Made by a program: the position numbers and the translations under genes. A stretch of DNA of 64,000 nt, from positions 64,958 to 128,957 of IMG/VR virus record IMGVR_UViG_3300021225_000468. The stretch is one strand, 5' to 3'. The notes beneath the pieces were generated by a model. That model did no database searches. It was not told where the DNA came from and worked only from the letters and a program-made list of their open reading frames with translations. Below are positions 29,993 to 40,105 of the stretch, in pieces. Every line of letters begins with the position of its first letter. The first letter of the stretch is position 1. The stretch comes from a virus.

Positions 29993-30177
29993 GTAAATTA
30001 AAATTAACAATCTCTCATTGGAATAATGGTATTTGGGGAAATAGAAACTATTTTTTCAAAACTCTTATAGATGCGAAAAATGAAGCAAAAAAACACAAGG
30101 GTAGAATTAAAATATATAATGAACAAAAACAAGTAATTTTATCTGAAGAAAACGAAAATAATGGAGTATATTCGTAA
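29989..30177 (+). CDS. Hypothetical protein
   Basis: 62-aa ORF with ATGA overlap. Confidence 0.55.
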   Translation: MSKLKLTISHWNNGIWGNRNYFFKTLIDAKNEAKKHKGRIKIYNEQKQVILSEENENNGVYS

Positions 30178-30186
30178 TCAAAAAAT

Positions 30187-31083
30187 ATGAAACTTTTATC
30201 ATTACTTTTTGAAAATAATAGTTACAAAACATCATACACAGGTGTCATTTTAGATAAGAATTCTACAAATAAAATATTAGAAATTGTCGATGTTCCGACA
30301 GGATGGAAACCTATCGCTCATCATATGACGATATCTTTAGGTGGAATACCTGAACAATTCAAAGATTTGTTAGGGAAAAAACAAACTTTACGAATCACTA
30401 AATTGGGTAAATCCGATAAAGCAATTGCATTAGGTGTTGATTCCAATCTAAGTTTGAATAAAATACCACACATAACTGTTGCAATTAATACCTCAATAGG
30501 GGCTAAAGCAAAAGATAGTAATGAAATCACAGAATGGGAAGAAATTGAACCATTTGAAGTGATAGGTTATGTAGAAGAAGTTCTATATCAACCACCATTT
30601 AAAACATCAGGTACACCAAAAGTATTAAACGTATTCGATTTTGACGGAACACTCATGGATTCACCAACACCTGAAGTTGGTATGCCATTATATAAAAAAT
30701 TAACAGGTAATGATTGGCCGTACAAAGGATGGTGGGGTAGATTGGAAAGTTTGACATCTTTTGATGTTAAACCTTTAGAGAAAACTAAAGAATTATATGA
30801 AAAATATACTTCAATACCTGATTCAGTAAATGTTTTGATGACAAATCGTATCGCTAAATTTGAAAATGTAGTAAAAGACAAACTCAAAGATTATTATGTT
30901 TTTGATTATTACGACTTCAAAAACGACCAAAGAGAAAAACCTGACAGAATATCTGAAATCTTGAAAAACAATCCCACAATACAACAAGTCAACATATTTG
31001 ATGATATGGAAGAACAAATAATTAAGTTCCAAAATTTCAAAGAAAAACACCCCGAATTGGAAATAAACATCTTTAAAATATAA
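30187..31083 (+). CDS. RNA-repair-type fusion: 2H phosphoesterase plus HAD phosphatase (HAD_SAK-like)
   Basis: HHMTI and PHITV (two HxT motifs); FDFDGTL..SP, GWW, LMTNR, IFDD. Confidence 0.75.
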   Translation: MKLLSLLFENNSYKTSYTGVILDKNSTNKILEIVDVPTGWKPIAHHMTISLGGIPEQFKDLLGKKQTLRITKLGKSDKAIALGVDSNLSLNKIPHITVAINTSIGAKAKDSNEITEWEEIEPFEVIGYVEEVLYQPPFKTSGTPKVLNVFDFDGTLMDSPTPEVGMPLYKKLTGNDWPYKGWWGRLESLTSFDVKPLEKTKELYEKYTSIPDSVNVLMTNRIAKFENVVKDKLKDYYVFDYYDFKNDQREKPDRISEILKNNPTIQQVNIFDDMEEQIIKFQNFKEKHPELEINIFKI

Positions 31084-31174
31084 CAGTATTATTTTTTTTA
31101 CTACAAACAGTTTCTATATAAAAAAATTTTGTTTATGTGTATTTCTTTACTACATTTACAAAAAATTGATAGAA

Positions 31175-32257
31175 ATGAAGACAATTAAAGATTTTACCCC
31201 CGAAATTAAGGCGAAGATTCCCGACTACATCTCAAGAGCAAAGGATGACCTTTATTCAGGTGTTGAAGCGGCAAATTGGAAGAAAGAAGATACCATAGTC
31301 TATCTTAATAAAGTCTATCAGTACAGTCAAAAGGAATTACCCGCAGTTGTTGTTGCCAATAACCCTGAGGAATATAAAATGTTTTTCGATTTGCTTTTTA
31401 ATGGCAAGAAGAACAAAAAATTTGAAAAAACCATTGAAAAGATTGTTGAAGACAAGAACAATGGGAAAGAATCTAAAGAGGAGTTGAACATCGAAGAAAC
31501 TCTTCGCAAAACAAAATGGAATTCAGGAAGTGCTATTGAGGCGAAATATGATTATCTGTTTCTTACCTCTGAATATGCCCGTGTTTATTTGATGTGGTAT
31601 CGGTTCATCCACAAGGAATTTGATATTCCTTTCTCAAAATCCGAAGACCTCGAATGGTTCTATCAACATATTAATCAAGCGTCCATTTCAAGGTGTTATT
31701 TCACTGAAAAAATTTGTTTGGTTCTGCGAATGCCAAGCAAGATAATCCGAAATGAGGTTGGTTTCCATTCAATTCATGAACCTGCAATTCAATTTGTTGG
31801 TGGTTTCGGTGCATATTATTTGAACGGAAGGAGAGTACCAAATTGGGTTTTTGAAAACTTTGAAAATGGTACACTCACGTTTGATATGTTGAACAATGAA
31901 AAGAATGAAGATATCCGTGCGTCAATTATCACATTGATAAAAGAAAGAAGTGGTAACGAAGGATTGATGAAGTTCTTGAATGCCACACTTGTCGATGAGA
32001 AAAAGGTTGAACATGAAAATGGGTACAGTGAAACCTTGAGAATTTGGAAAACCAAACAGAAATATTCTTTCTTGGTTGACAGCAAAGGAAATACCAATGT
32101 ACCATACGCTTGGATTGAAATGATATGTCCTTCAACAGGTCAGACATATCTGATTGATACCTGTCCAACATTCAAAGACGCAATCGAATGTGCGAAATGG
32201 CACAGACCGAAAATGGTACCAAGTTCTGTACCTTACGTTTGGCAATCAGCAAATTAA
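31175..32257 (+). CDS. DUF6745-like protein lacking the internal tetrapeptide repeat
   Basis: N-terminal FTPE...IP.Y...VY......P.VVVANNP; C-terminal ICLVLRMP..I....GFHS..EPAIQF..G...YYLNG, N.DIR, M.CPSTG..Y. Confidence 0.72.
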   Translation: MKTIKDFTPEIKAKIPDYISRAKDDLYSGVEAANWKKEDTIVYLNKVYQYSQKELPAVVVANNPEEYKMFFDLLFNGKKNKKFEKTIEKIVEDKNNGKESKEELNIEETLRKTKWNSGSAIEAKYDYLFLTSEYARVYLMWYRFIHKEFDIPFSKSEDLEWFYQHINQASISRCYFTEKICLVLRMPSKIIRNEVGFHSIHEPAIQFVGGFGAYYLNGRRVPNWVFENFENGTLTFDMLNNEKNEDIRASIITLIKERSGNEGLMKFLNATLVDEKKVEHENGYSETLRIWKTKQKYSFLVDSKGNTNVPYAWIEMICPSTGQTYLIDTCPTFKDAIECAKWHRPKMVPSSVPYVWQSAN

Positions 32258-32276
32258 TAACCAAAAAATCAATCAA

Positions 32277-32320
32277 TGTCCTGTTCAAAGAATGTACTCT
32301 TTGGGCAGGACATTTTTTTT
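32277..32320 (+). terminator. Intrinsic terminator or attenuator between the DUF6745-like gene and the mini-gene array
   Basis: TGTCCTGTTCAAAGA...TCTTTGGGCAGGACA followed by T8. Confidence 0.75.
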
Positions 32321-32323
32321 AAT

Positions 32324-32509
32324 ATGAAAAATATATTTTTTGAAATGTATCGTTTAGATACTGATGAGATTGAAACTAATCTGAGTAATTCTTTTGATGA
32401 AATTTCTATTATCCATGTAAGTGATGAATTGAATACATTACTTTATACAAATATCACACAAGAATTTTGGTTTGAACTTAAACAAGAAATTAATGAATAT
32501 TTACTCTGA
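32324..32509 (+). CDS. Array mini-gene 1 (diverged)
   Basis: MKNIFFE...ELKQEINEYLL. Confidence 0.65.
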   Translation: MKNIFFEMYRLDTDEIETNLSNSFDEISIIHVSDELNTLLYTNITQEFWFELKQEINEYLL

Positions 32510-32672
32510 AACTTTCAAATATAATTTATATTCAAATATCACAGATATATTCCAACAACGTGAATATTTTACACTCATTTATTGTAAATTAGTCAGTCAT
32601 TTAGATGACGTATTATTCATTCAACTTCAAGAAGAATTGTGTAATGAAATAAATTCATTGATAGATGGGTAA
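32493..32672 (+). CDS. Array mini-gene 2 (diverged)
   Basis: MNIYSE...EELCNEINSLIDG. Confidence 0.65.
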   Translation: MNIYSETFKYNLYSNITDIFQQREYFTLIYCKLVSHLDDVLFIQLQEELCNEINSLIDG

Positions 32673-32859
32673 TATTATAGAAAAACTAAGGACAGAACTT
32701 CGTTCACAACTTTTGTTAGAAATTGATTTAATACTTTGGTTAGTACTACAGTCAGAACTTGATTCAAAACTTCGTTCACAACTTTTGTCAGAAATTTTTT
32801 CAGAATTTGGTTTAGACCTTGAAAGAGAAATAAATTCAATTGTAGATGAATACAATTAA
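32665..32859 (+). CDS. Array mini-gene 3
   Basis: MGNIIEKL...EREINSIVDEYN. Confidence 0.75.
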   Translation: MGNIIEKLRTELRSQLLLEIDLILWLVLQSELDSKLRSQLLSEIFSEFGLDLEREINSIVDEYN

Positions 32860-33010
32860 AGAAGAATTTTGGTCAGAACTTTTGTCAGAACTTGATTCAG
32901 AACTTCATGCAGAACTTTGGTCAGAACTTTGGTCAAAACATCGGTCAGAACTTGATTCAGAATTTGATATAGAACTTGAAAGAGAAATAAAATCAATGAT
33001 TGATGGATAA
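32846..33010 (+). CDS. Array mini-gene 4 (not in ORF track)
   Basis: MNTIKEEFWSELLSELDSEL...EREIKSMIDG, 54 aa. Confidence 0.75.
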   Translation: MNTIKEEFWSELLSELDSELHAELWSELWSKHRSELDSEFDIELEREIKSMIDG

Positions 33011-33173
33011 AAATAGAAAAGAACTTTCGTCAGAACTTGATTCTAAACTTAATTCTAAATTTCATTCAGAACTTGATTGGAAACTTCATTTAGACCTTTG
33101 GTTGGGATTTGATTCAGAACATTATATACAACTTCAAAGAGAAATAAATTCAATAATAGATGGCAACTATTAG
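33003..33173 (+). CDS. Array mini-gene 5 (not in ORF track)
   Basis: MDKNRKELSSELDSKL...QREINSIIDGNY, 56 aa. Confidence 0.75.
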   Translation: MDKNRKELSSELDSKLNSKFHSELDWKLHLDLWLGFDSEHYIQLQREINSIIDGNY

Positions 33174-33342
33174 AGAAGAACTAAAGACAGAACTTGATTC
33201 AAAACTTAATTCTAAATTTAAGTCAGAACTTGATGAAATTCTTAATTTAGACCTTTGGTTTGGACTTGGTGTAGAACTTACGTCAGAACTTAATACAGAA
33301 CTCAGACCAGAAATAAAATCAATGATTGATGGACAACATTAG
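33160..33342 (+). CDS. Array mini-gene 6
   Basis: MATIREEL...PEIKSMIDGQH. Confidence 0.75.
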   Translation: MATIREELKTELDSKLNSKFKSELDEILNLDLWFGLGVELTSELNTELRPEIKSMIDGQH

Positions 33343-33538
33343 AAAAAAACTTGGTTGGGAACTTCGGTCAGAACTTGATAGAGAACTTGGTTTAGAACTT
33401 CGTCCAAACCTTCATGCAGAACTTTGGTCAGAACTTGATTGGGAACTTATTTCTGAAATAAATTCAATGATAGATGAAAAACATAAGAGAAGAACTTGTT
33501 TCAAAACTTGGTTCAGAATTTTATTCAGAACTTCATGA
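33329..33538 (+). CDS. Array mini-gene 7 (stop lost, C-terminal extension)
   Basis: MDNIRKKL...SEINSMIDEKH plus extra residues. Confidence 0.7.
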   Translation: MDNIRKKLGWELRSELDRELGLELRPNLHAELWSELDWELISEINSMIDEKHKRRTCFKTWFRILFRTS

Positions 33539-33680
33539 AGAACTTGATAGAAAACTTCATTCAGAACTTTGGTCAAAAATTCGTTTAGAAATTCGGTCAG
33601 AACTTCGGTCAGAACTTTATTTAGAACTTTATTTAGAACTTGAAAGAGAAATAAAATCAATGGTAGATGAAAAACGATAG
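33474..33680 (+). CDS. Array mini-gene 8
   Basis: MKNIREEL...EREIKSMVDEKR. Confidence 0.75.
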   Translation: MKNIREELVSKLGSEFYSELHEELDRKLHSELWSKIRLEIRSELRSELYLELYLELEREIKSMVDEKR

Positions 33681-33849
33681 AGTTGAATTACAATTAAAAT
33701 TTAAATCAGAAATTTATGCGGAATCTAAAGAAAAAATTTGGTTGCCATTTAGAATAGAACTGAGGAGAAAACTTATATTAGTATTATTTGTCGAATTTAG
33801 AGAAGACCTTCGTTCAGAAATAAATTCAATGATAAATGGACAACATTAG
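33667..33849 (+). CDS. Array mini-gene 9
   Basis: MKNDRVEL...SEINSMINGQH. Confidence 0.72.
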   Translation: MKNDRVELQLKFKSEIYAESKEKIWLPFRIELRRKLILVLFVEFREDLRSEINSMINGQH

Positions 33850-34012
33850 AGAAGAACTAAAGACAGAACTTGATTCAACACTTAATTCTAAATTTAATTC
33901 AGAACTTGATGAAAAACTTAATATAGACCTTTATTTAGTACTTTGGTTGAGACTTAGTTCAGAACTTGATTCAGAACTCAGACCAGAAATAAAATCAATG
34001 ATTGATGAATAA
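33836..34012 (+). CDS. Array mini-gene 10 (not in ORF track)
   Basis: MDNIREELKTELDSTL...PEIKSMIDE, 58 aa; close paralogue of gene 6. Confidence 0.75.
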   Translation: MDNIREELKTELDSTLNSKFNSELDEKLNIDLYLVLWLRLSSELDSELRPEIKSMIDE

Positions 34013-34193
34013 CATTAGAAAAGAACTTTTGTCAGAACTTGATTCAAAACTTTGGTCAGAACTTCATCCGAAACTTTACTCAAAAGTTGATGTAAAACTT
34101 CGATTAGAACTTGATACATTTTTTCATTTAGAACTTTATACAGAATTTGATTTAGAACTTAATAGAGAAATTTATTCAATGATATATGAATAA
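34005..34193 (+). CDS. Array mini-gene 11
   Basis: MNNIRKEL...REIYSMIYE. Confidence 0.75.
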   Translation: MNNIRKELLSELDSKLWSELHPKLYSKVDVKLRLELDTFFHLELYTEFDLELNREIYSMIYE

Positions 34194-34410
34194 CATTAGA
34201 GAAGAACTTCGGTCAGAACTTGATTCAGAACTTTGGTCAGAACTTCATACAGAACTTCGGTCAGAACTTGGTTCAGAACTTTGGTCAGAACTTGGTTCAG
34301 AACTTGATAGAGAACTTCGTTCAGAACTTTATTCAGAACTTTGGTCAGAACTTGATTCAGACCTTAATTCTGAACTTCAAAGAGAAATAAATTCAATGAT
34401 AAATGAATAG
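34186..34410 (+). CDS. Array mini-gene 12 (longest, purest SELx repeat)
   Basis: MNNIREELRSELDSELWSEL...REINSMINE. Confidence 0.78.
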   Translation: MNNIREELRSELDSELWSELHTELRSELGSELWSELGSELDRELRSELYSELWSELDSDLNSELQREINSMINE

Positions 34411-34585
34411 CTTAAAAGAAACACTAAAGACAGAACTTCATTCAAAATTTCGTTCACAACTTGATTCAGAACTTTGCACAAAACTTTGGTCAGAACTTCG
34501 TTCAGGTCTTTATTCAGAACTTTGGTCAGAACTTGTTTCAGAACTTCAAAGAGAAATAAATTCAATGATATATGAAAAACATTAA
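34403..34585 (+). CDS. Array mini-gene 13
   Basis: MNSLKETL...REINSMIYEKH. Confidence 0.75.
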   Translation: MNSLKETLKTELHSKFRSQLDSELCTKLWSELRSGLYSELWSELVSELQREINSMIYEKH

Positions 34586-34706
34586 TGAAGAACTAAAGAC
34601 AGAACTTCATTCAGAACTTTATTCAGAACTTTATTCAGAACTTGATTTAGAATTTCATTCAGAACTTGATAGAGAAATTTATTCAATGATATATGAAAAA
34701 CATTAA
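34572..34706 (+). CDS. Array mini-gene 14 (shortest; not in ORF track)
   Basis: MKNINEELKTELHSELYSEL...REIYSMIYEKH, 44 aa. Confidence 0.72.
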   Translation: MKNINEELKTELHSELYSELYSELDLEFHSELDREIYSMIYEKH

Positions 34707-34905
34707 TGAAGAACTTCATACAGAACTTCGGTTAGGACTTCGGTCAAAACTTGATTCAGAACTTCTGTCAAAACTTGATTCAGAACTTTGGTCAGAACTT
34801 GATAGAGAACTTCATTCAGAACTTGATTTAGAACTTTATTCAGAACTTGATTTAGAACTTCATTCAGAACTTGATAGAGAAATTTATTCAATGATTGATG
34901 AATAA
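34693..34905 (+). CDS. Array mini-gene 15
   Basis: MKNINEEL...REIYSMIDE. Confidence 0.75.
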   Translation: MKNINEELHTELRLGLRSKLDSELLSKLDSELWSELDRELHSELDLELYSELDLELHSELDREIYSMIDE

Positions 34906-35080
34906 CATTAGAAAAGAACTTTGGTCAGAACTTTGGTCAGAAATTTATTCAGAACTTCGGTCAGAACTTCTTTCAGAACTTCGGTTAGGACTTCGGTTAG
35001 GACTTCGGTCAAAACTTGATTCAGAACTTTGGTCAGAACTCGGAGCAGAAATAAATTCAATGATTGATGATGAACAATAA
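34898..35080 (+). CDS. Array mini-gene 16
   Basis: MNNIRKEL...AEINSMIDDEQ. Confidence 0.75.
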   Translation: MNNIRKELWSELWSEIYSELRSELLSELRLGLRLGLRSKLDSELWSELGAEINSMIDDEQ

Positions 35081-35273
35081 AATAATAACCAACACTCTTA
35101 CGGATACATATCCACCATATCTGTACGAAGTTTTATATAGAACTTTGGACAATGAAACTTATTTATATCTCAGTCCTTTTTTATTTTCAAAATTAAGTAG
35201 GGAAATGAATGATTTTTCTAACCATTTAAGATTTGAATTACAATTTGCAATAAAAGAAATGTTAGATGAATAA
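35067..35273 (+). CDS. Array mini-gene 17 (diverged)
   Basis: MMNNKII...ELQFAIKEMLDE; junctions conserved, repeat eroded. Confidence 0.65.
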   Translation: MMNNKIITNTLTDTYPPYLYEVLYRTLDNETYLYLSPFLFSKLSREMNDFSNHLRFELQFAIKEMLDE

Positions 35274-35442
35274 CATAATAGATAATATTAAAAAAGAAAT
35301 TTATTTTGAATTTCAGATAAAATTATGGTCCGAAATTCGGTCAAACATTGATATAGAATTTAGTTTAAAACTTGATTCAGAACTTGATTCAGACTTTTAT
35401 TCAGAACTCAGTACAGAAATAGATTCAATGATATATGGGTAA
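35266..35442 (+). CDS. Array mini-gene 18 (not in ORF track)
   Basis: MNNIIDNIKKEIY...TEIDSMIYG, 58 aa. Confidence 0.72.
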   Translation: MNNIIDNIKKEIYFEFQIKLWSEIRSNIDIEFSLKLDSELDSDFYSELSTEIDSMIYG

Positions 35443-35641
35443 AATAAAAATAGAACTAACGACAGAATTATATTTAAAACTTTATTCAGAATTTGGGACA
35501 GAACTTTTTTTAGAAATTGATTTAAAACTTCTGTTAGAACTTCTGTTAGAACTTGAATCAGAACTTCGGTCAGAACTTCATTCAGAACTTGATTCAGAAC
35601 TCAGACCTGAAATAAATTCAATGATAAATGAAAAACATTAG
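35435..35641 (+). CDS. Array mini-gene 19
   Basis: MGKIKIEL...PEINSMINEKH. Confidence 0.75.
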   Translation: MGKIKIELTTELYLKLYSEFGTELFLEIDLKLLLELLLELESELRSELHSELDSELRPEINSMINEKH

Positions 35642-35810
35642 AACAAGACTTAAATCAGAACTTTATTTAGAACTTCGGTCAGAACTTAATTCAGAACTTG
35701 ATTCAGAACTTTGGTCAGAACTTGATTCAGAACTTGATTTTGACCTTGATTCAGAACTTTGGTCAGAACTTGATAGAGAAATTTATTCAATGGTATATGA
35801 AAAACATTAG
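35628..35810 (+). CDS. Array mini-gene 20
   Basis: MKNIRTRL...REIYSMVYEKH. Confidence 0.75.
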   Translation: MKNIRTRLKSELYLELRSELNSELDSELWSELDSELDFDLDSELWSELDREIYSMVYEKH

Positions 35811-36003
35811 AGAAAAACTTTGGTCAAAAATTCGTTTAGAACTTCGGTCAGAACTTGAATCAGAACTTCGTTCAAAACTTGATTTAGAACTTGAATCAGA
35901 ACTTTATTTAGAACTTGAAATAGTACTTTATTCAGAACTTCGGTCAGAACTTGATTGGGAACTTTGGTCAGAAATAAATTCAATGATTGATGAAAAACAT
36001 TAG
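35797..36003 (+). CDS. Array mini-gene 21
   Basis: MKNIREKL...SEINSMIDEKH. Confidence 0.75.
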   Translation: MKNIREKLWSKIRLELRSELESELRSKLDLELESELYLELEIVLYSELRSELDWELWSEINSMIDEKH

Positions 36004-36160
36004 GGAAGAACTCGCAGAAAAAATGCACACAATCACCCTATCCATTGATTTGGAACACAAACAACATATGGATGAATTATTATATAAGAATGTGTACATC
36101 AATTTAATTGATGATGACCATGCCATAGATATGATAAATTTACAAACTATAATTCCTTAG
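35990..36160 (+). CDS. Array mini-gene 22 (terminal, diverged; not in ORF track)
   Basis: MKNIREEL start, then non-repeat sequence, 56 aa. Confidence 0.6.
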   Translation: MKNIREELAEKMHTITLSIDLEHKQHMDELLYKNVYINLIDDDHAIDMINLQTIIP

Positions 36161-36253
36161 TTTTAAAACGATTTTCACAATATTTATAAAAAAAGACCAC
36201 AAAATTTTTTTATATCAATAATAACTCTTACTTTTACTAATAAATCAACAATT

Positions 36254-36628
36254 ATGAAATTCAAAAACAGTAACTTCCATCAAGGAGACACCCAATGGTT
36301 CGCCATCAACGCCATCCCCAAAGATGCAAAAAAGATTGAAAAACAATTCATCGCAGCATCCGAAAGGTCAGGGTCCTTCCACGCACTCTTCGGAAACTAT
36401 GACATGTACGAAGTAGAAGACGGGTTCGTAATCGATGCAAAAGAAGAATGCATCCTGAACCACTCACTGAAAGAAGTACTCCAAAATACAGGAGTATCCC
36501 TCAGTGAAGCCAAAGTCCTCCCCAAAAAAGACCACAGACATACCGTAATCCCCAAAGGAATCCACTTCGTTGGTATCCAACAACGCTTCGACCCCCTCAA
36601 AGGTCTGAAAGAAAAAGTTCGTGACTAA
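36254..36628 (+). CDS. DUF6745-associated partner protein (QGD / His motif family)
   Basis: HQGD...IAASERSGSFH...DH....IPKG....IQQRFDP....VRD resembles the RQGDV / GE.TGH.H / H..I.LP.G / Q.EYDP...V.D protein usually adjacent to DUF6745 genes (from recall). Confidence 0.68.
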   Translation: MKFKNSNFHQGDTQWFAINAIPKDAKKIEKQFIAASERSGSFHALFGNYDMYEVEDGFVIDAKEECILNHSLKEVLQNTGVSLSEAKVLPKKDHRHTVIPKGIHFVGIQQRFDPLKGLKEKVRD

Positions 36629-36683
36629 TTTGGTTTTTATGCGTAAGTTTGTTATCTTTGTAATAGATTAACGTTCTTTGACA
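36629..36683 (+). promoter_or_regulatory. Bacteroidota-type promoter plus boxA-like element heading the tRNA cluster
   Basis: TTTG(36629)-N20-TATCTTTG(36653); CGTTCTTTGACA at 36672. Confidence 0.65.
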
Positions 36684-36728
36684 TACAAAAACAAAAACAT
36701 CAGTCTGACAGTCTTGTTGGACTGAGAT

Positions 36729-37012
36729 GCTCCGATGATGGAACTGGGAGACATGAAGGACTTATACAATTTGAGTGCTTAGGAGGAAACTCCTAATGTA
36801 GAATTCCGTAAATTCGGTGAACCCTGAAATGGGAATACCGAGCCAAGCCTTAGAAATAAGGAAGGTGTAGAGACTAAACACGGAACACCTAAATCGAAAG
36901 ATATGGTGAAGATATAGTCCAGACCACAAACAGAGATGGTAGCGAAAGCTATAGTGGTAAGAAAATCCTTTTCGCAGTAATGTGAGTGCGGGTTCGAATC
37001 CCGCTTGGAGCA
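36729..37012 (+). tRNA. trnL: tRNA-Leu(UAA), intron-containing (exons 36729-36763 and 36962-37012)
   Basis: Acceptor GCTCCGA/TTGGAGC-A; spliced anticodon arm AAGGA-CTT^AAAA-TCCTT; long variable arm; GGTTCGAATCC. Confidence 0.9.
36764..36961 (+). mobile_element. Group I intron (198 nt, no ORF) in the tRNA-Leu anticodon
   Basis: Follows U and ends in G; core elements AAATTCGGTGAA (P), AATACCGAGC (Q), GTAGAGACTA (R), AAGATATAGTCC (S). Confidence 0.88.
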
Positions 37013-37049
37013 CTTTAACACTGTTTCTTTGAAAAAAAGGAGTATAAAA

Positions 37050-37328
37050 ATGGATATATTATCATTTGTTTTAGGAATTGGAGCAGTAGTGGTTGTAACT
37101 GGAAATATAGTTGCTATTGTTTCTTTTGTTAAGGTGAATAATCAAAGAACAGAATTAGAAAGTCTAAAAGAATCTATGTCACGAAGAGCCGATGAATTTG
37201 AGTTTTCAATTTCTCGTCAATTTGAAAATGAACATAGAGATAGAGAAAGTATAGTTCACGAAATTTATAGAACTATAGATTCCAGACTTGATAAACTTGA
37301 AAATAAACTTAAAGGCGAAAAGCCATAA
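37050..37328 (+). CDS. Membrane-anchored coiled-coil protein
   Basis: N-terminal TM helix followed by coiled coil. Confidence 0.65.
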   Translation: MDILSFVLGIGAVVVVTGNIVAIVSFVKVNNQRTELESLKESMSRRADEFEFSISRQFENEHRDRESIVHEIYRTIDSRLDKLENKLKGEKP

Positions 37329-37391
37329 ACAATAAATAAAAAGTTTAAAGAAATAGTGTTAAATTAGGGGGGACAACAATTCCCCCTTTTT

Positions 37392-37465
37392 GGTCCCGTA
37401 ACTCAGATGAATAGAGTGCAATCCTTCTAAGATTGAAGTCACAGGTTTGAATCCTGTCGGGACTA
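37392..37465 (+). tRNA. tRNA-Arg(UCU)
   Basis: GGTCCCG/CGGGACT-A; CAATC-CTTCTAA-GATTG; T-loop TTTGAAT. Confidence 0.88.
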
Positions 37466-37586
37466 CTGATTCAGTTTGCCCGTGGTAACGACCCGTTAGG
37501 AGAAATTCTAACGGGTTTCTGTAATCAAAATCCAAGCGATGTCTCACTGTTGTTTGGGCTAAATGTGAGGAAAAAACGGGATGTTT

Positions 37587-37657
37587 AGTCAGGTGGTGTA
37601 ATGGTAGCATAACAGACTTTGACTCTGTTTGTATAGGTTCGAATCCTGTCCTGACTG
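37587..37657 (+). tRNA. tRNA-Gln(UUG)
   Basis: AGTCAGG/CCTGACT-G; ACAGA-CTTTGAC-TCTGT; GGTTCGAATCC. Confidence 0.82.
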
Positions 37658-37744
37658 CTAGGTAAGTTCCATGTAAAATGTCAGGGTCTATGAACATGGT
37701 GACCACTAGAAAGAGAGTTGACAGCTGGAAACGAGACAGCAAAT

Positions 37745-37857
37745 AGTCAGGTGGCGGAATTGGTAGACGCTATGGTTAGACTGGATAGCAACCAGCATAC
37801 GGCTTTGTAACAAGCACCGAAGGTAGCACCATACAGGTTCAAATCCTGTCCTGACTA
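37745..37857 (+). ncRNA. tRNA-like RNA A (anticodon loop replaced by a multi-hairpin domain)
   Basis: AGTCAGG/CCTGACT-A, D-arm GGCGGAATTGGTAGACGC, ATGGT/ACCAT stem enclosing three small hairpins, T-arm ACAGG-TTCAAAT-CCTGT. Confidence 0.75.
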
Positions 37858-37887
37858 CATACATTTAAAAATCAAAAAACGATTAAA

Positions 37888-38043
37888 ATGTTAAACATTA
37901 CAATCAAAACAGAAAACGGCTCACGTTCTTTAGGCTTCAGCCAAATTTTAGTAGATTATATTACTAAAACTGAAAGATGGAATTATGTATTCGATTGTTT
38001 AGTTAATGGAAATAGAATAGACAAAACTAATTGGGATTATTAA
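37888..38043 (+). CDS. Small hypothetical protein between tRNA-like RNAs
   Basis: 51-aa ORF (MLNITIKTEN...) filling the spacer. Confidence 0.5.
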   Translation: MLNITIKTENGSRSLGFSQILVDYITKTERWNYVFDCLVNGNRIDKTNWDY

Positions 38044-38194: not shown

Positions 38195-38306
38195 AGTCAG
38201 GTGGCGAAATTGGTAGACGCTAACGTCCCGTGTAAGAGTGTCAGGTATGCATGGTTAGCCGAAAGGTAAAGATACTCACTTACAGGTTCGAATCCTGTCC
38301 TGACTA
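38195..38306 (+). ncRNA. tRNA-like RNA C
   Basis: Same acceptor, D and T arms; about 60-nt non-canonical centre with a CC-GAAA-GG hairpin. Confidence 0.72.
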
Positions 38307-38950: not shown

Positions 38951-39060
38951 AGTCAGGTGGCGAAATTGGTAAACGCTATCCTCGCAAGGGAAATGGAGAA
39001 GCCTACTAAGTAAAGTCCTGTGGTAAAAGTCCAATGCAGGTTCGAATCCTGTCCTGACTA
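38951..39060 (+). ncRNA. tRNA-like RNA E
   Basis: AGTCAGG/CCTGACT-A; TCCT-CGCAA-GGGA arm; TGGA/TCCA-closed extra domain; T arm. Confidence 0.72.
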
Positions 39061-39938: not shown

Positions 39939-40030
39939 GGTCAGGTGGCGCAGGGGTAGCGTATTGGTGAGTAATCCGTTTCATCGGAACCAAAAGACAA
40001 GGGTCACAGGTTCGAGTCCTGTCCTGACCG
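39939..40030 (+). ncRNA. tRNA-like RNA F
   Basis: GGTCAGG/CCTGACC-G (compensatory G1-C72), D-arm GCGC/GCGT, TTGGT/ACCAA stem extended by a bulge and TCCG/CGGA hairpin, T arm. Confidence 0.72.
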
Positions 40031-40105
40031 CTTAAAATATTATTGACAATTTTTTTGTTAATAATTTTTATTTTTGTACATTTAACTATTAAACAAAATT
40101 CAAAA

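What the first reader, a model, noticed from the sequence alone, without database searches (positions are those of the whole stretch)
32665..36003. Strict 12n+1 geometry: each core mini-gene starts in the +1 frame inside the previous gene's tail
Seen: start-to-start distances for the 18 core genes are 181, 157, 157, 169, 145, 193, 169, 169, 181, 217, 169, 121, 205, 169 and, after the diverged gene 17, 169, 193, 169, 193. All equal 12n+1. The next ATG always lies 19 nt after the conserved GAA of E-I-x-S. Length changes occur only in whole 12-nt units, and the SELx frame has no internal stop. Variation concentrates in the fourth codon (GAT, TGG, CGG, CGT, CAT, TAT, AAT). Inference: slippage and unequal crossover generate diversity while selection keeps each short ORF intact. 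Coupling would give stoichiometric expression, and a +1 frameshift at junctions could give concatenated products.
Basis: seen in the sequence. Interest (0 to 1): 0.72.

Follow-up and report, generated by a model that had tools for sequence, protein, structure and literature searches.

The report
Detached tetrapeptide-repeat mini-gene array
A large uncultured phage carries 22 tiny overlapping genes, each one helix built from a four-amino-acid repeat that related phages keep inside a single unstudied protein; the neat 12n+1 spacing follows from that build, and what the set does is still unknown.

Summary
All 18 listed start-to-start distances are 12n+1, and the next ATG lies 19 nt after the conserved GAA in 18 of 18 genes. 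The spacing is arithmetic: each gene from its ATG to its C-terminal cap is in a four-codon register (MxNI, then x-S-E-L units, then xSMI), and the next ATG starts one base into the following codon.

The array is 22 overlapping mini-genes (32324-36160). It lies between a repeat-less DUF6745-like gene (31175-32257) and a conserved 124-aa partner gene (36254-36628). Relatives of the DUF6745-like gene carry the same tetrapeptide tract inside the protein. Of the best 150 hits of the mini-protein profile, 88 also match the profile of that gene.

Related loci with the internal tract lack mini-genes, and 14 of 17 repeat-less ones have them. A complex model supports docking (score 0.67, best control 0.01).

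Nothing supports +1 frameshifting. Function is unknown. The nearest studied analogue, not a homologue, is mycobacteriophage Tweety gp54.

This scan has already reported the same system on other DNA.

The parts
31175..32257 (+). Repeat-less DUF6745-like 'core' gene (360 aa)
   Evidence: 120 homologues at E<=0.001; some carry an internal tetrapeptide tract. Pfam DUF6745 scores 15.8 bits, below the cut-off of 27. AF2 pLDDT 90. No solved fold matched. It is the only copy in the record.
32275..32314 (+). Terminator-like hairpin with a T-run, between the core gene and the array
   Evidence: 17-pair stem followed by TTTTTT.
32324..32509 (+). Diverged mini-gene 1 (MKNI head, no regular repeat)
32493..32672 (+). 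Diverged mini-gene 2 (ends ..EINSLIDG)
   Evidence: 17-nt overlap with the gene before it.
32665..32859 (+). Mini-gene, 64 aa
32846..33010 (+). Mini-gene, 54 aa
33003..33173 (+). Mini-gene, 56 aa
33160..33342 (+). Mini-gene, 60 aa
33329..33538 (+). Mini-gene, 69 aa; usual stop lost, with a 17-aa out-of-register tail and a 65-nt overlap
33474..33680 (+). Mini-gene, 68 aa
33667..33849 (+). Mini-gene, 60 aa, irregular interior; orthologues at 70-94% identity in other metagenomes
33836..34012 (+). Mini-gene, 58 aa
34005..34193 (+). Mini-gene, 62 aa
34186..34410 (+). Mini-gene, 74 aa, the most regular; used for the fold and the complex model
   Evidence: AF2 gives one helix over residues 2-73, pLDDT 91.7; complex model.
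34403..34585 (+). Mini-gene, 60 aa
34572..34706 (+). Mini-gene, 44 aa (the shortest)
34693..34905 (+). Mini-gene, 70 aa
34898..35080 (+). Mini-gene, 60 aa
35067..35273 (+). Diverged member ('gene 17'), 68 aa; only the C-cap resembles the family
   Evidence: hhalign aligns 16 columns at the C-terminus, probability 6.7%.
35266..35442 (+). Mini-gene, 58 aa
35435..35641 (+). Mini-gene, 68 aa; orthologue P0128 at 73.5% identity
35628..35810 (+). Mini-gene, 60 aa
35797..36003 (+). Mini-gene, 68 aa
35990..36160 (+). Last member, 56 aa: family head MKNIREEL, non-repeat body, no C-cap
   Evidence: hhalign aligns 14 columns at the N-terminus, probability 58%.
36254..36628 (+). Conserved 124-aa partner gene of the core
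   Evidence: A homologue lies downstream of the core in 30 of 32 viral loci, usually within about 100 nt.

Best explanation
The stretch is a tandem array of 22 small protein-coding genes: 18 regular and 4 diverged. It sits in the accessory-gene block of a large tailed phage.

Each regular gene encodes one long alpha-helix. The helix is made of a four-residue head (MxNI), 9 to 16 further tetrads of the form x-S-E-L, and a conserved C-terminal cap (..EREI-NSMI-DE).

The genes are free-standing copies of the tetrapeptide tract that many relatives of the neighbouring DUF6745-like protein carry between their N- and C-terminal domains. This phage's copy of that protein lacks the tract.

The 12n+1 spacing is a consequence of three things:
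1. The whole gene is in tetrad register.
2. Gains and losses occur by whole 12-nt units. Replication slippage or unequal exchange is the inferred cause.
3. The next ATG is formed one base into the Asp-Glu codons after the cap. The next gene's codons 2-5 also supply the upstream gene's stop, giving an 8- or 14-nt overlap.

I infer that the genes are translated from one transcript by termination-reinitiation. I also infer that each mini-protein binds the repeat-less core through its conserved C-cap and lays a helix of variable length and variable x-stripe along the core. One scaffold, with its 124-aa partner, could then take about 20 alternative helices.

By analogy only with mycobacteriophage Tweety gp54, the likely arena is phage-host conflict, such as tunable counter-defence or host takeover.

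Shown: the anatomy, the register, the family links and the complementary distribution. Model-supported: the helix and the docking. Inferred: slippage, coupling and function.
For: Anatomy:
- 22 ORFs in one frame series. 21 of 21 junctions overlap: 8 by 8 nt, 11 by 14 nt, one by 17 nt and one by 65 nt.
- The register is kept in 18 of 18 core genes.

Link to the core family:
- Homologues P0014, P0020 and P0032 carry internal (xSEL)n. P0067 and P0072 carry (xSQL)n. P0103, P0108 and P0116 carry (xxQV)n. In each the tract lies between the same N- and C-domains.
- The mini-protein profile, searched over 1.84 billion representatives, gave 377 hits at E<=0.001. Of the best 150, 88 also match the core profile at E<=1e-5 (77 of the 87 that are 300-720 aa long). 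Sixteen are free-standing proteins of 70 aa or less that match the profile end to end or nearly so.

Complementary distribution in 32 viral loci:
- 0 of 13 loci with an internal tract have 3 or more mini-ORFs.
- 14 of 17 loci with a complete repeat-less core have 3 or more.

Synteny:
- The order core, small-ORF array, partner recurs in L005 (13 small ORFs).
- Mini-genes flank the core on both sides in L001, whose core is 74% identical to the window's.
- The partner gene is present in 30 of 32 loci.

Fold: AF2 predicts one helix over residues 2-73, pLDDT 91.7.

Docking:
- Complex score 0.67 (runs 0.80, 0.67, 0.57); best of 3 controls 0.01.
- The mark was reached by 58 of 80 solved complexes and 2 of 110 mismatched pairs.
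- The runs agree in at least 0% of their contacts, and the partner's pLDDT is at least 64.
- The model supports binding but does not show it.
- The lowest-error contacts join the mini-protein's conserved L64, E67, I68, M71 and I72 to core residues 184, 187, 190 and 205. L64, E67 and I68 are invariant in A1. P187 is invariant and I190 and I205 nearly invariant in A2.

Diversification pattern:
- The x codon has 30 codon types and 17 residues.
- The four-fold sites of Ser and Leu are nearly fixed: TCA 102 of 109 and CTT 152 of 169, against genome usage of 39% and 11%.
- The same argument was made for Tweety gp54 (PMC2884959, passages read).
Against: - No expression or protein data exist for the mini-genes.
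- The complex score is a model's own confidence. Long amphipathic helices are easy to lay on a partner, and my own alignments were used, so the calibration holds only roughly.
- A Leu stripe with a period of 4.0 winds around a straight alpha-helix (100 degrees per residue, established geometry). A 70-residue straight helix therefore cannot keep one face on a partner.
- The mini-protein caps do not obviously resemble the tract borders in the fused proteins (reading).
- The loci in the complementarity count are not independent. L015, L016 and L020 give the same core and partner matches and share the same two mini-ORFs, L027 and L028 give identical results, and L010, L017 and L018 look closely related.
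- The filter passes some chance ORFs (for example 2 of the 3 in L002) and misses the diverged L005 array.
- 7 of the 13 fused loci lie at a contig end, so only one flank was seen.
- The core scores below Pfam's DUF6745 cut-off.
- Tweety gp54 is not a homologue (hhalign probability 0.3%), so the functional analogy rests on build alone.
- In L004 the detached tract is one 509-aa ORF, not mini-genes, so small size is not essential to the system.
Confidence: 0.6

Rival explanations
1. The mini-proteins work on their own and are only genomic neighbours of the DUF6745-like gene. They could be self-associating amphipathic helices, or decoys or inhibitors that bind host proteins directly. The shared repeat would then reflect common descent or DNA exchange, not a physical partnership.
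For: The isolated protein is predicted as a single helix. In L009, L010, L011, L017 and L018 many mini-genes lie 2-8 kb from the core. L004 has a 509-aa free-standing tetrad protein.
Against: Mini-genes are distributed complementarily to internal tracts. Conserved residues on both sides sit at the modelled interface, with score 0.67 against a best control of 0.01; the mark was reached by 58 of 80 solved complexes and 2 of 110 mismatched pairs; run agreement was at least 0% and partner pLDDT at least 64.
Confidence: 0.22
2. The array is read as one or a few long products by programmed +1 frameshifting at each junction. The mini-genes would then be modules of a polyprotein.
For: Every junction moves to the +1 frame. 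A relative, L004, encodes a single 509-aa protein made of the same kind of tetrads.
Against: - Known +1 sites (prfB, Ty1, antizyme; established knowledge) need a P-site codon that re-pairs in the +1 frame. The codons before the stops here are CAT, GAA, GGA, AAT and TAT, followed by TAG or TAA, and they do not re-pair.
- Each module keeps its own ATG and stop.
- Related arrays use other junctions: 12n+4, 12n+5 with a 4-nt overlap in the other frame, and no overlap in L031.
- The L004 protein is an ordinary in-frame ORF.
- Gene callers elsewhere record free-standing proteins of 46-67 aa.
Confidence: 0.04
3. The stretch is mainly a DNA- or RNA-level repeat, such as a binding-site array or a structured transcript, and the ORFs are incidental.
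For: A 9-nt core (TCAGAACTT) is kept at synonymous sites and uses codons that are rare in this genome. 77 of the 80 + strand copies of CAGAACTT in the record are in the array.
Against: - Conserved ATG, caps and stops occur at fixed places in 22 units.
- The same protein pattern is written with other residues and codons in relatives: xSQL, xxQV, xNSV and xNTL.
- Variation falls on first and second codon positions of one residue.
- No Rfam family matches inside the array.
Confidence: 0.04
4. The regular geometry is an assembly artefact of a short-read metagenome: chimeric joins inside a 12-nt repeat.
For: No contig of four public runs spans the array, and 26 conflicting joints were reported. Joins through shared in-register words would keep the 12-nt phase, so the geometry itself cannot vouch for the assembly (inference).
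Against: - Contigs from runs of three studies cover single genes and bridge junctions with few differences: X1 32628-32817, 32998-33198, 33309-33565, 33657-33850 and 35066-35394; X2 31175-32692; X5 32840-32974, 33136-33338 and 35990-36718. One of these runs may be the window's own source.
- The genes differ from each other by about 17-40% at the DNA level.
- L001 and database proteins show the same build independently.
Confidence: 0.05

Closest known systems
Internal tetrapeptide tract of DUF6745-like (Pfam PF20530) phage and prophage proteins, e.g. P0014, P0020, P0032 (xSEL), P0067, P0072, P0163 (xSQL), P0103, P0108, P0116 (xxQV)
   Same: The four-residue unit is the same: a variable residue, a small residue, E or Q, then L or V. 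The alphabet at x is the same (D, R, W, Y, H, N, G). The gene family next door is the same. 88 of the best 150 hits of the mini-protein profile are such proteins.
   Different: There the tract is one uninterrupted segment inside a protein of 400-720 aa. Here it is split off into about 20 separate genes of 44-74 aa, each with its own start, caps and stop, and the core has no tract. No paper in the held library mentions DUF6745.
Mycobacteriophage Tweety gp54 (with Che8 gp57 and PMC gp51)
   Same: An N-domain, 15-48 tetrapeptide repeats and a C-domain. The DNA unit is 12 bp. Third codon positions are invariant while first and second positions of the variable residues change. Copy number differs between phages (PMC2884959, passages read). 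Escape mutants with more or fewer repeats overcome the Phrann gp29/gp30 defence (review PMC9262239, one passage read).
   Different: There is no sequence relationship to the core (hhalign probability 0.3%) and no Pfam family. The repeat is AAxx in a high-G+C tract. It is one fused gene, not a gene array. The primary paper (Dedrick et al. 2017) is not held and the supplements are closed.
Free-standing long tetrad protein in a related phage (L004 9060-10589, 509 aa)
   Same: It sits between a repeat-less core and the partner gene, and is built of xSEL and xxEL tetrads.
   Different: It is a single in-frame ORF without internal caps, starts or stops.
Variable region 2 of Bordetella phage BMP-1 gene bbp36
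   Same: A short in-frame DNA repeat whose copy number differs between isolates. It was named as reminiscent by the Tweety authors (PMC2884959 passage).
   Different: The unit is 24 bp in one gene. It was not examined here.
Diversity-generating retroelement targets
   Same: Variation is focused on a few codons of a phage accessory protein.
   Different: No reverse transcriptase (PF00078) is found in the record, which is only 41% complete. No template repeat was seen. Variation comes together with unit copy-number change.

Membership tests
DUF6745 (Pfam PF20530), for the core gene 31175-32257 | Score at or above Pfam's gathering cut-off (27 bits) | tested here: not met
   15.8 bits, E 0.009. 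Homologue P0088 also falls just short at 25.7 bits.
DUF6745 (Pfam PF20530), for the core gene 31175-32257 | Clear homology to proteins that carry the family's precomputed annotation | tested here: met
   Twelve hits in the list carry precomputed PF20530.4; for example P0077, P0088, P0092, P0102 and P0107, with E values from 3.2e-57 to 2.0e-67.
Tetrapeptide tract of DUF6745-like proteins, for the mini-genes | The repeat profile finds the internal tract of core-family proteins | tested here: met
   88 of the best 150 profile hits also match the core profile at E<=1e-5.
Tetrapeptide tract of DUF6745-like proteins, for the mini-genes | The tract lies inside one protein, between the N- and C-domains | tested here: not met
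   The genes here are free-standing and the core has no tract.
Tweety gp54 family | Sequence similarity of the flanking domains | tested here: not met
   hhalign of A2 against gp54 gives probability 0.3%.
Tweety gp54 family | A 12-nt unit with fixed synonymous sites and variable first and second positions | tested here: met
   compared with the PMC2884959 passage.
Tweety gp54 family | Counter-defence activity tuned by repeat number | not testable with these tools
   Needs a host and a defence system.
Diversity-generating retroelement | A reverse transcriptase and a template repeat near the variable region | tested here: inconclusive
   No PF00078 match in the record, but the record is a fragment, 41% complete.
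Programmed +1 frameshift site | A P-site codon able to re-pair in the +1 frame next to a slow or stop codon | tested here: not met
   The junction sequences listed; the rule itself is recalled from the prfB, Ty1 and antizyme cases.
Translationally coupled operon | The start codon overlaps or abuts the upstream stop | tested here: met
   21 of 21 junctions overlap by 8-65 nt. Coupling itself was not tested.

The most novel reading that the evidence does not exclude
The phage runs a combinatorial library in trans. One scaffold (the repeat-less DUF6745-like protein plus its 124-aa partner) accepts any of about 20 co-expressed helical subunits. The length of each subunit changes in four-residue steps by 12-nt slippage, and one stripe of each (x) is under diversifying selection. 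A single infection would then field many specificities against host targets such as defence proteins. This would be the split, multi-allelic counterpart of the repeat-number tuning seen in Tweety gp54.
Probability: 0.22. Interest if true: 0.85.

Novelty: new variant of a known kind. Interest (0 to 1): 0.62.

Why it matters
Phage proteins with hypervariable tetrapeptide tracts are known from one studied case, Tweety gp54, where repeat number tunes escape from a prophage defence. Here the same kind of tract has been taken out of its protein and multiplied into about 20 separately encoded, overlapping mini-genes next to a core that has lost it.

If the mini-proteins dock back onto the core, this would be a new way for a virus to hold many variants of one functional part at once. 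It would also give a handle on the function of DUF6745, on which the held library has no paper.

For annotation, it shows that runs of 44-74-aa ORFs in repeat DNA can be real genes. The same build is present in several other viral loci (at least 10 of the 32 fetched with the core profile).

The '12n+1 law' itself is only book-keeping.

Tried and rejected
Family and sequence searches that led nowhere:
- Pfam and PHROGs on mini-proteins gave nothing above a cut-off. The best was phrog_22707, of unknown function, at E 4.5e-6.
- Scans of viral contigs with the mini-protein alignment and with the single core protein found no relative. The core alignment then found 32 loci.
- tblastn of the core against isolated-phage records found no match.
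- blastn of 30001-38000 against the same collection matched only the tRNA and intron region, plus one 108-nt low-complexity hit.
- A single mini-protein searched against 5.8 billion proteins gave 1 hit. The profile gave 40 hits at E<=1.
- The longest profile hits examined (P0162 at 3048 aa and P0168 at 1064 aa) are Ig-domain proteins with unrelated tetrapeptide runs, so they are low-complexity false positives. None of the 14 listed hits longer than 720 aa matches the core profile.

Structure searches:
- Fold searches of the core model found no convincing match. Foldseek's best E was 0.21 and VIA-align wide's best Z was 5.0. This does not show that the fold is new.

Regulatory and RNA scans:
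- The promoter and terminator scan found fewer sigma-70-like sites than shuffles (13 against a mean of 25). The only clear terminator-like site is at 32275-32314.
- The Bacteroidota-type box TANNTTTG is not enriched (98 against a mean of 113) and is absent from the + strand inside the array. Neither result is informative on transcription.
- No Rfam family matches in the array.
- No reverse transcriptase is in the record.

Public sequencing runs:
- 20 runs of 11 studies hold part of the stretch.
- In the 4 runs that were laid, contigs break up inside the array and none spans it.
- 26 joints were reported. They may be strain variants or graph tangles, and I could not tell which.
- The RNA-library run X20 gave three contigs, on the core gene (31331-31483) and the partner gene (36289-36639). 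It gave no cover in the array. Contigs cannot show absence, and DNA may be present in that library.

Not available:
- Paper supplements are closed, so the Tweety Supplementary Tables S1 and S2 were not seen.
- Dedrick et al. 2017 is not held. Its claims are taken from one passage of the review PMC9262239.

Literature searches for prior description:
- 'DUF6745' is held by 0 papers.
- 'tetrapeptide repeat' + phage + tandem + 'small genes' (3 of the 4 terms required): none of the 20 listed papers held the phrase 'tetrapeptide repeat'.

Full report
**What is there.**
Window 32324-36160 (+ strand) holds 22 short ORFs in series. Eighteen are regular. Their starts are 32665, 32846, 33003, 33160, 33329, 33474, 33667, 33836, 34005, 34186, 34403, 34572, 34693 and 34898, then 35266, 35435, 35628 and 35797.

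Printed in groups of four residues, each regular gene is a head MxNI, then 9-16 further units x-S-E-L, then the cap ..(E/Q/D)REI-(N/K/Y)SMI-DE. The fourth residue of every unit is hydrophobic.

Four members keep a cap but not the repeat: 32324, 32493, 35067 and 35990.

The record is a 128,957-base virus contig, rated 41% complete. It has a major head protein, portal and large terminase on the - strand at 12.9-21.8 kb. The array lies in a + strand block of accessory genes and tRNAs.

**The observation.**
The one exception is 199 across the diverged gene 35067. The next ATG lies 19 nt after the conserved GAA in 18 of 18 genes.

The reason is simple. From the ATG to the codon before the final Asp, every gene is a multiple of 12 nt (asserted and passed), and the next ATG begins at the second base of that Asp codon (GATGAA).

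The junction is dual-coding. The next gene's codons 2-3 (AAT AAC) or 4-5 (ATT AGA) provide the upstream TAA or TAG. This gives an 8-nt overlap at 8 junctions and a 14-nt overlap at 11 junctions. Where Ile is ATA instead of ATT (gene 33474), the upstream gene loses its stop and runs on for 17 residues.

Given the forced 3n+1, 18 of 18 at 12n+1 has a chance of about 1.5e-11 if lengths were free in codons (my arithmetic).

**Variation.**
I analysed 223 internal units.
- The x codon carries almost no information (0.00, 0.62 and 0.50 bits) and shows 30 codon types and 17 residues.
- Ser is TCA in 102 of 109 units, Glu is GAA in 157 of 157, and Leu is CTT in 152 of 169.
- In 63 long ORFs of the same record, CTT is 11% of Leu (TTA is 61%), TCA is 39% of Ser, and CGG is about 0% of Arg. 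CGG occurs 17 times at x.

So four-fold degenerate sites are nearly fixed while first and second positions of one residue vary freely. This fits young units spread by slippage, with selection or a mutational bias for change at x. The same argument was made for Tweety gp54 (PMC2884959, passages read).

The genes are not near-identical copies. They are about 60-83% alike at the DNA level.

**What it belongs to.**
The gene just upstream (31175-32257, 360 aa) has 120 homologues at E<=0.001. Several longer ones have, between the same N-terminal part of about 100 aa and the same C-terminal domain, a long run of tetrapeptides:
- xSEL in P0014, P0020 and P0032;
- xSQL in P0067 and P0072;
- xxQV in P0103, P0108 and P0116.

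Twelve homologues in the list carry the precomputed Pfam family DUF6745. The window's own protein scores 15.8 bits against a cut-off of 27.

The reverse search agrees. A profile of the 18 mini-proteins, run over 1.84 billion representatives, gave 377 hits at E<=0.001. Of the best 150, 88 also match the core profile (77 of the 87 that are 300-720 aa long). Sixteen are free-standing proteins of 70 aa or less that match the profile end to end or nearly so. None of the 14 hits longer than 720 aa matches the core profile, and the two I read are unrelated low-complexity proteins.

**Relatives.**
The core profile found 32 viral loci.
- A homologue of the 124-aa gene 36254-36628 lies just downstream of the core in 30 of 32.
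- Thirteen loci have a core with an internal tract of 7 or more like tetrads. Seventeen have a complete repeat-less core. Two are cut and ambiguous.
- I applied a simple filter: ORFs of 30-130 aa, hydrophobic at 75% or more of every fourth position and at 30% or less elsewhere. With it, 0 of the 13 fused loci and 14 of the 17 repeat-less loci have three or more mini-ORFs.

Caveats on that count: several loci are close relatives of each other, the filter has false positives and misses, and 7 fused loci sit at a contig end.

Individual loci:
- L001 (core 74% identical) has at least 12 mini-genes on both sides of the core. Its caps are MDNI.. and ..EINQMIDNG, its overlap is 8 nt, and its spacing is mostly 12n+4.
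- The QV-type arrays (L009-L011, L014, L017, L018) are often spaced 161, 185, 209 or 221, which is 12n+5.
- L005 has 13 small ORFs between core and partner.
- L004 has one 509-aa all-tetrad ORF there.
- L003 has a 310-aa ORF there that I read as LAGLIDADG-like by eye.
- Nine loci in cellular genome contigs are all from Bacteroidota, Ignavibacteriota or Chlorobiota. Four of the eight I could classify have an internal tract, and none has mini-gene arrays.

The register is looser outside the window. It is kept in 7 of 11 L001 genes and in 10 of 17 foreign database proteins with a recognisable cap. One of those 17 is a fragment and one has an uncertain start.

So '12n+c' is a family tendency, and its strictness here is local.

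**Structure and binding.**
AF2 gives the 74-aa mini-protein as one helix (residues 2-73, pLDDT 91.7). It gives the core as a confident two-part fold (pLDDT 90) with no convincing solved relative.

The complex model supports binding but does not show it:
- Score 0.67; best of 3 controls 0.01.
- The mark was reached by 58 of 80 solved complexes and 2 of 110 mismatched pairs.
- The runs agree in at least 0% of their contacts, and the partner's pLDDT is at least 64.
- My own alignments were used, so the calibration holds only roughly.

The lowest-error contacts join the conserved C-cap residues L64, E67, I68, M71 and I72 to core residues 64, 184, 187, 190 and 205. L64, E67 and I68 are invariant in A1. 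P187 is invariant and I190 and I205 are nearly invariant in A2.

A period of exactly four makes the Leu stripe wind round a straight helix. The geometry of a long interface therefore remains doubtful.

**Mechanism, with odds.**
- Separate, coupled mini-genes that are detached copies of the DUF6745-type tract: about 0.85.
- That they dock on the core: about 0.5.
- That the module acts in phage-host conflict, as Tweety gp54 does: about 0.25.

In Tweety, escape mutants with changed repeat number overcome Phrann gp29/gp30 (review PMC9262239, one passage read). Tweety gp54 is not homologous to the core, so this is an analogy of build only.

Frameshifted concatenation, a non-coding repeat and an assembly artefact each get about 0.05 or less, for the reasons given under the rivals.

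**Assembly and expression.**
Twenty public runs of 11 studies hold parts of the stretch. Four runs were laid; contigs of the three DNA runs, from three studies, cover single genes and bridge several junctions with 0-11 differences. None spans the array, and many conflicting joints appear. One of those runs may be the window's own source.

An RNA-library run has contigs on the core and partner genes only, which proves little.

**Novelty.**
The held library has no paper that mentions DUF6745, and I found none describing such mini-gene arrays. This scan has already reported the same system in at least eight other genomes.

I reached the same reading here from this window's own data. The lead to DUF6745 came from a note on this stretch, and the lead to Tweety came from those earlier notes.

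Noticed in passing
window 33329-33538: This mini-gene has lost its usual stop. The next gene's Ile codon is ATA instead of ATT, which turns the upstream TAG into AAG. The protein gains a 17-residue out-of-register tail and overlaps the next gene by 65 nt.
   Followed up: partly
window 32275-32314: A strong terminator-like hairpin (17 pairs, then a T-run) sits between the core gene and the first mini-gene, whose ATG follows at 32324. The array may therefore need read-through or its own promoter, and none was recognised.
   Followed up: partly
window 36754-36942: Rfam reports a group I catalytic intron (61 bits, gathering cut-off 50) just after the partner gene. The same region gives blastn hits to 595-735-kb uncultured phage records and to Agrobacterium phage Atu_ph07.
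   Followed up: partly
window 37745-37857, 38195-38306, 38951-39060: Three Rfam tRNA matches span 110-113 nt for a 71-position model. They are tRNA-like elements with long insertions, and ARAGORN did not call them.
   Followed up: no
window 34769-34876: A blastn hit (75.5% identity, E 3e-6, 3 places in the record) to ORF42 of a Nitrosopumilaceae spindle-shaped virus record. It may be a similar 12-nt repeat or only low complexity.
   Followed up: no
L004 9060-10589: In a related phage of about 327 kb, a single 509-aa ORF made almost wholly of xSEL and xxEL tetrads lies between the repeat-less core and the partner gene. This is a third build, beside the fused tract and the mini-genes.
   Followed up: partly
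L003 9101-10033: A 310-aa ORF lies between core and partner in another relative. I read it by eye as a LAGLIDADG-type homing endonuclease, and this was not tested.
   Followed up: no
window 39939-40031: ARAGORN calls a 93-nt tRNA-Thr (anticodon AGT), which is unusually long for a tRNA.
   Followed up: no
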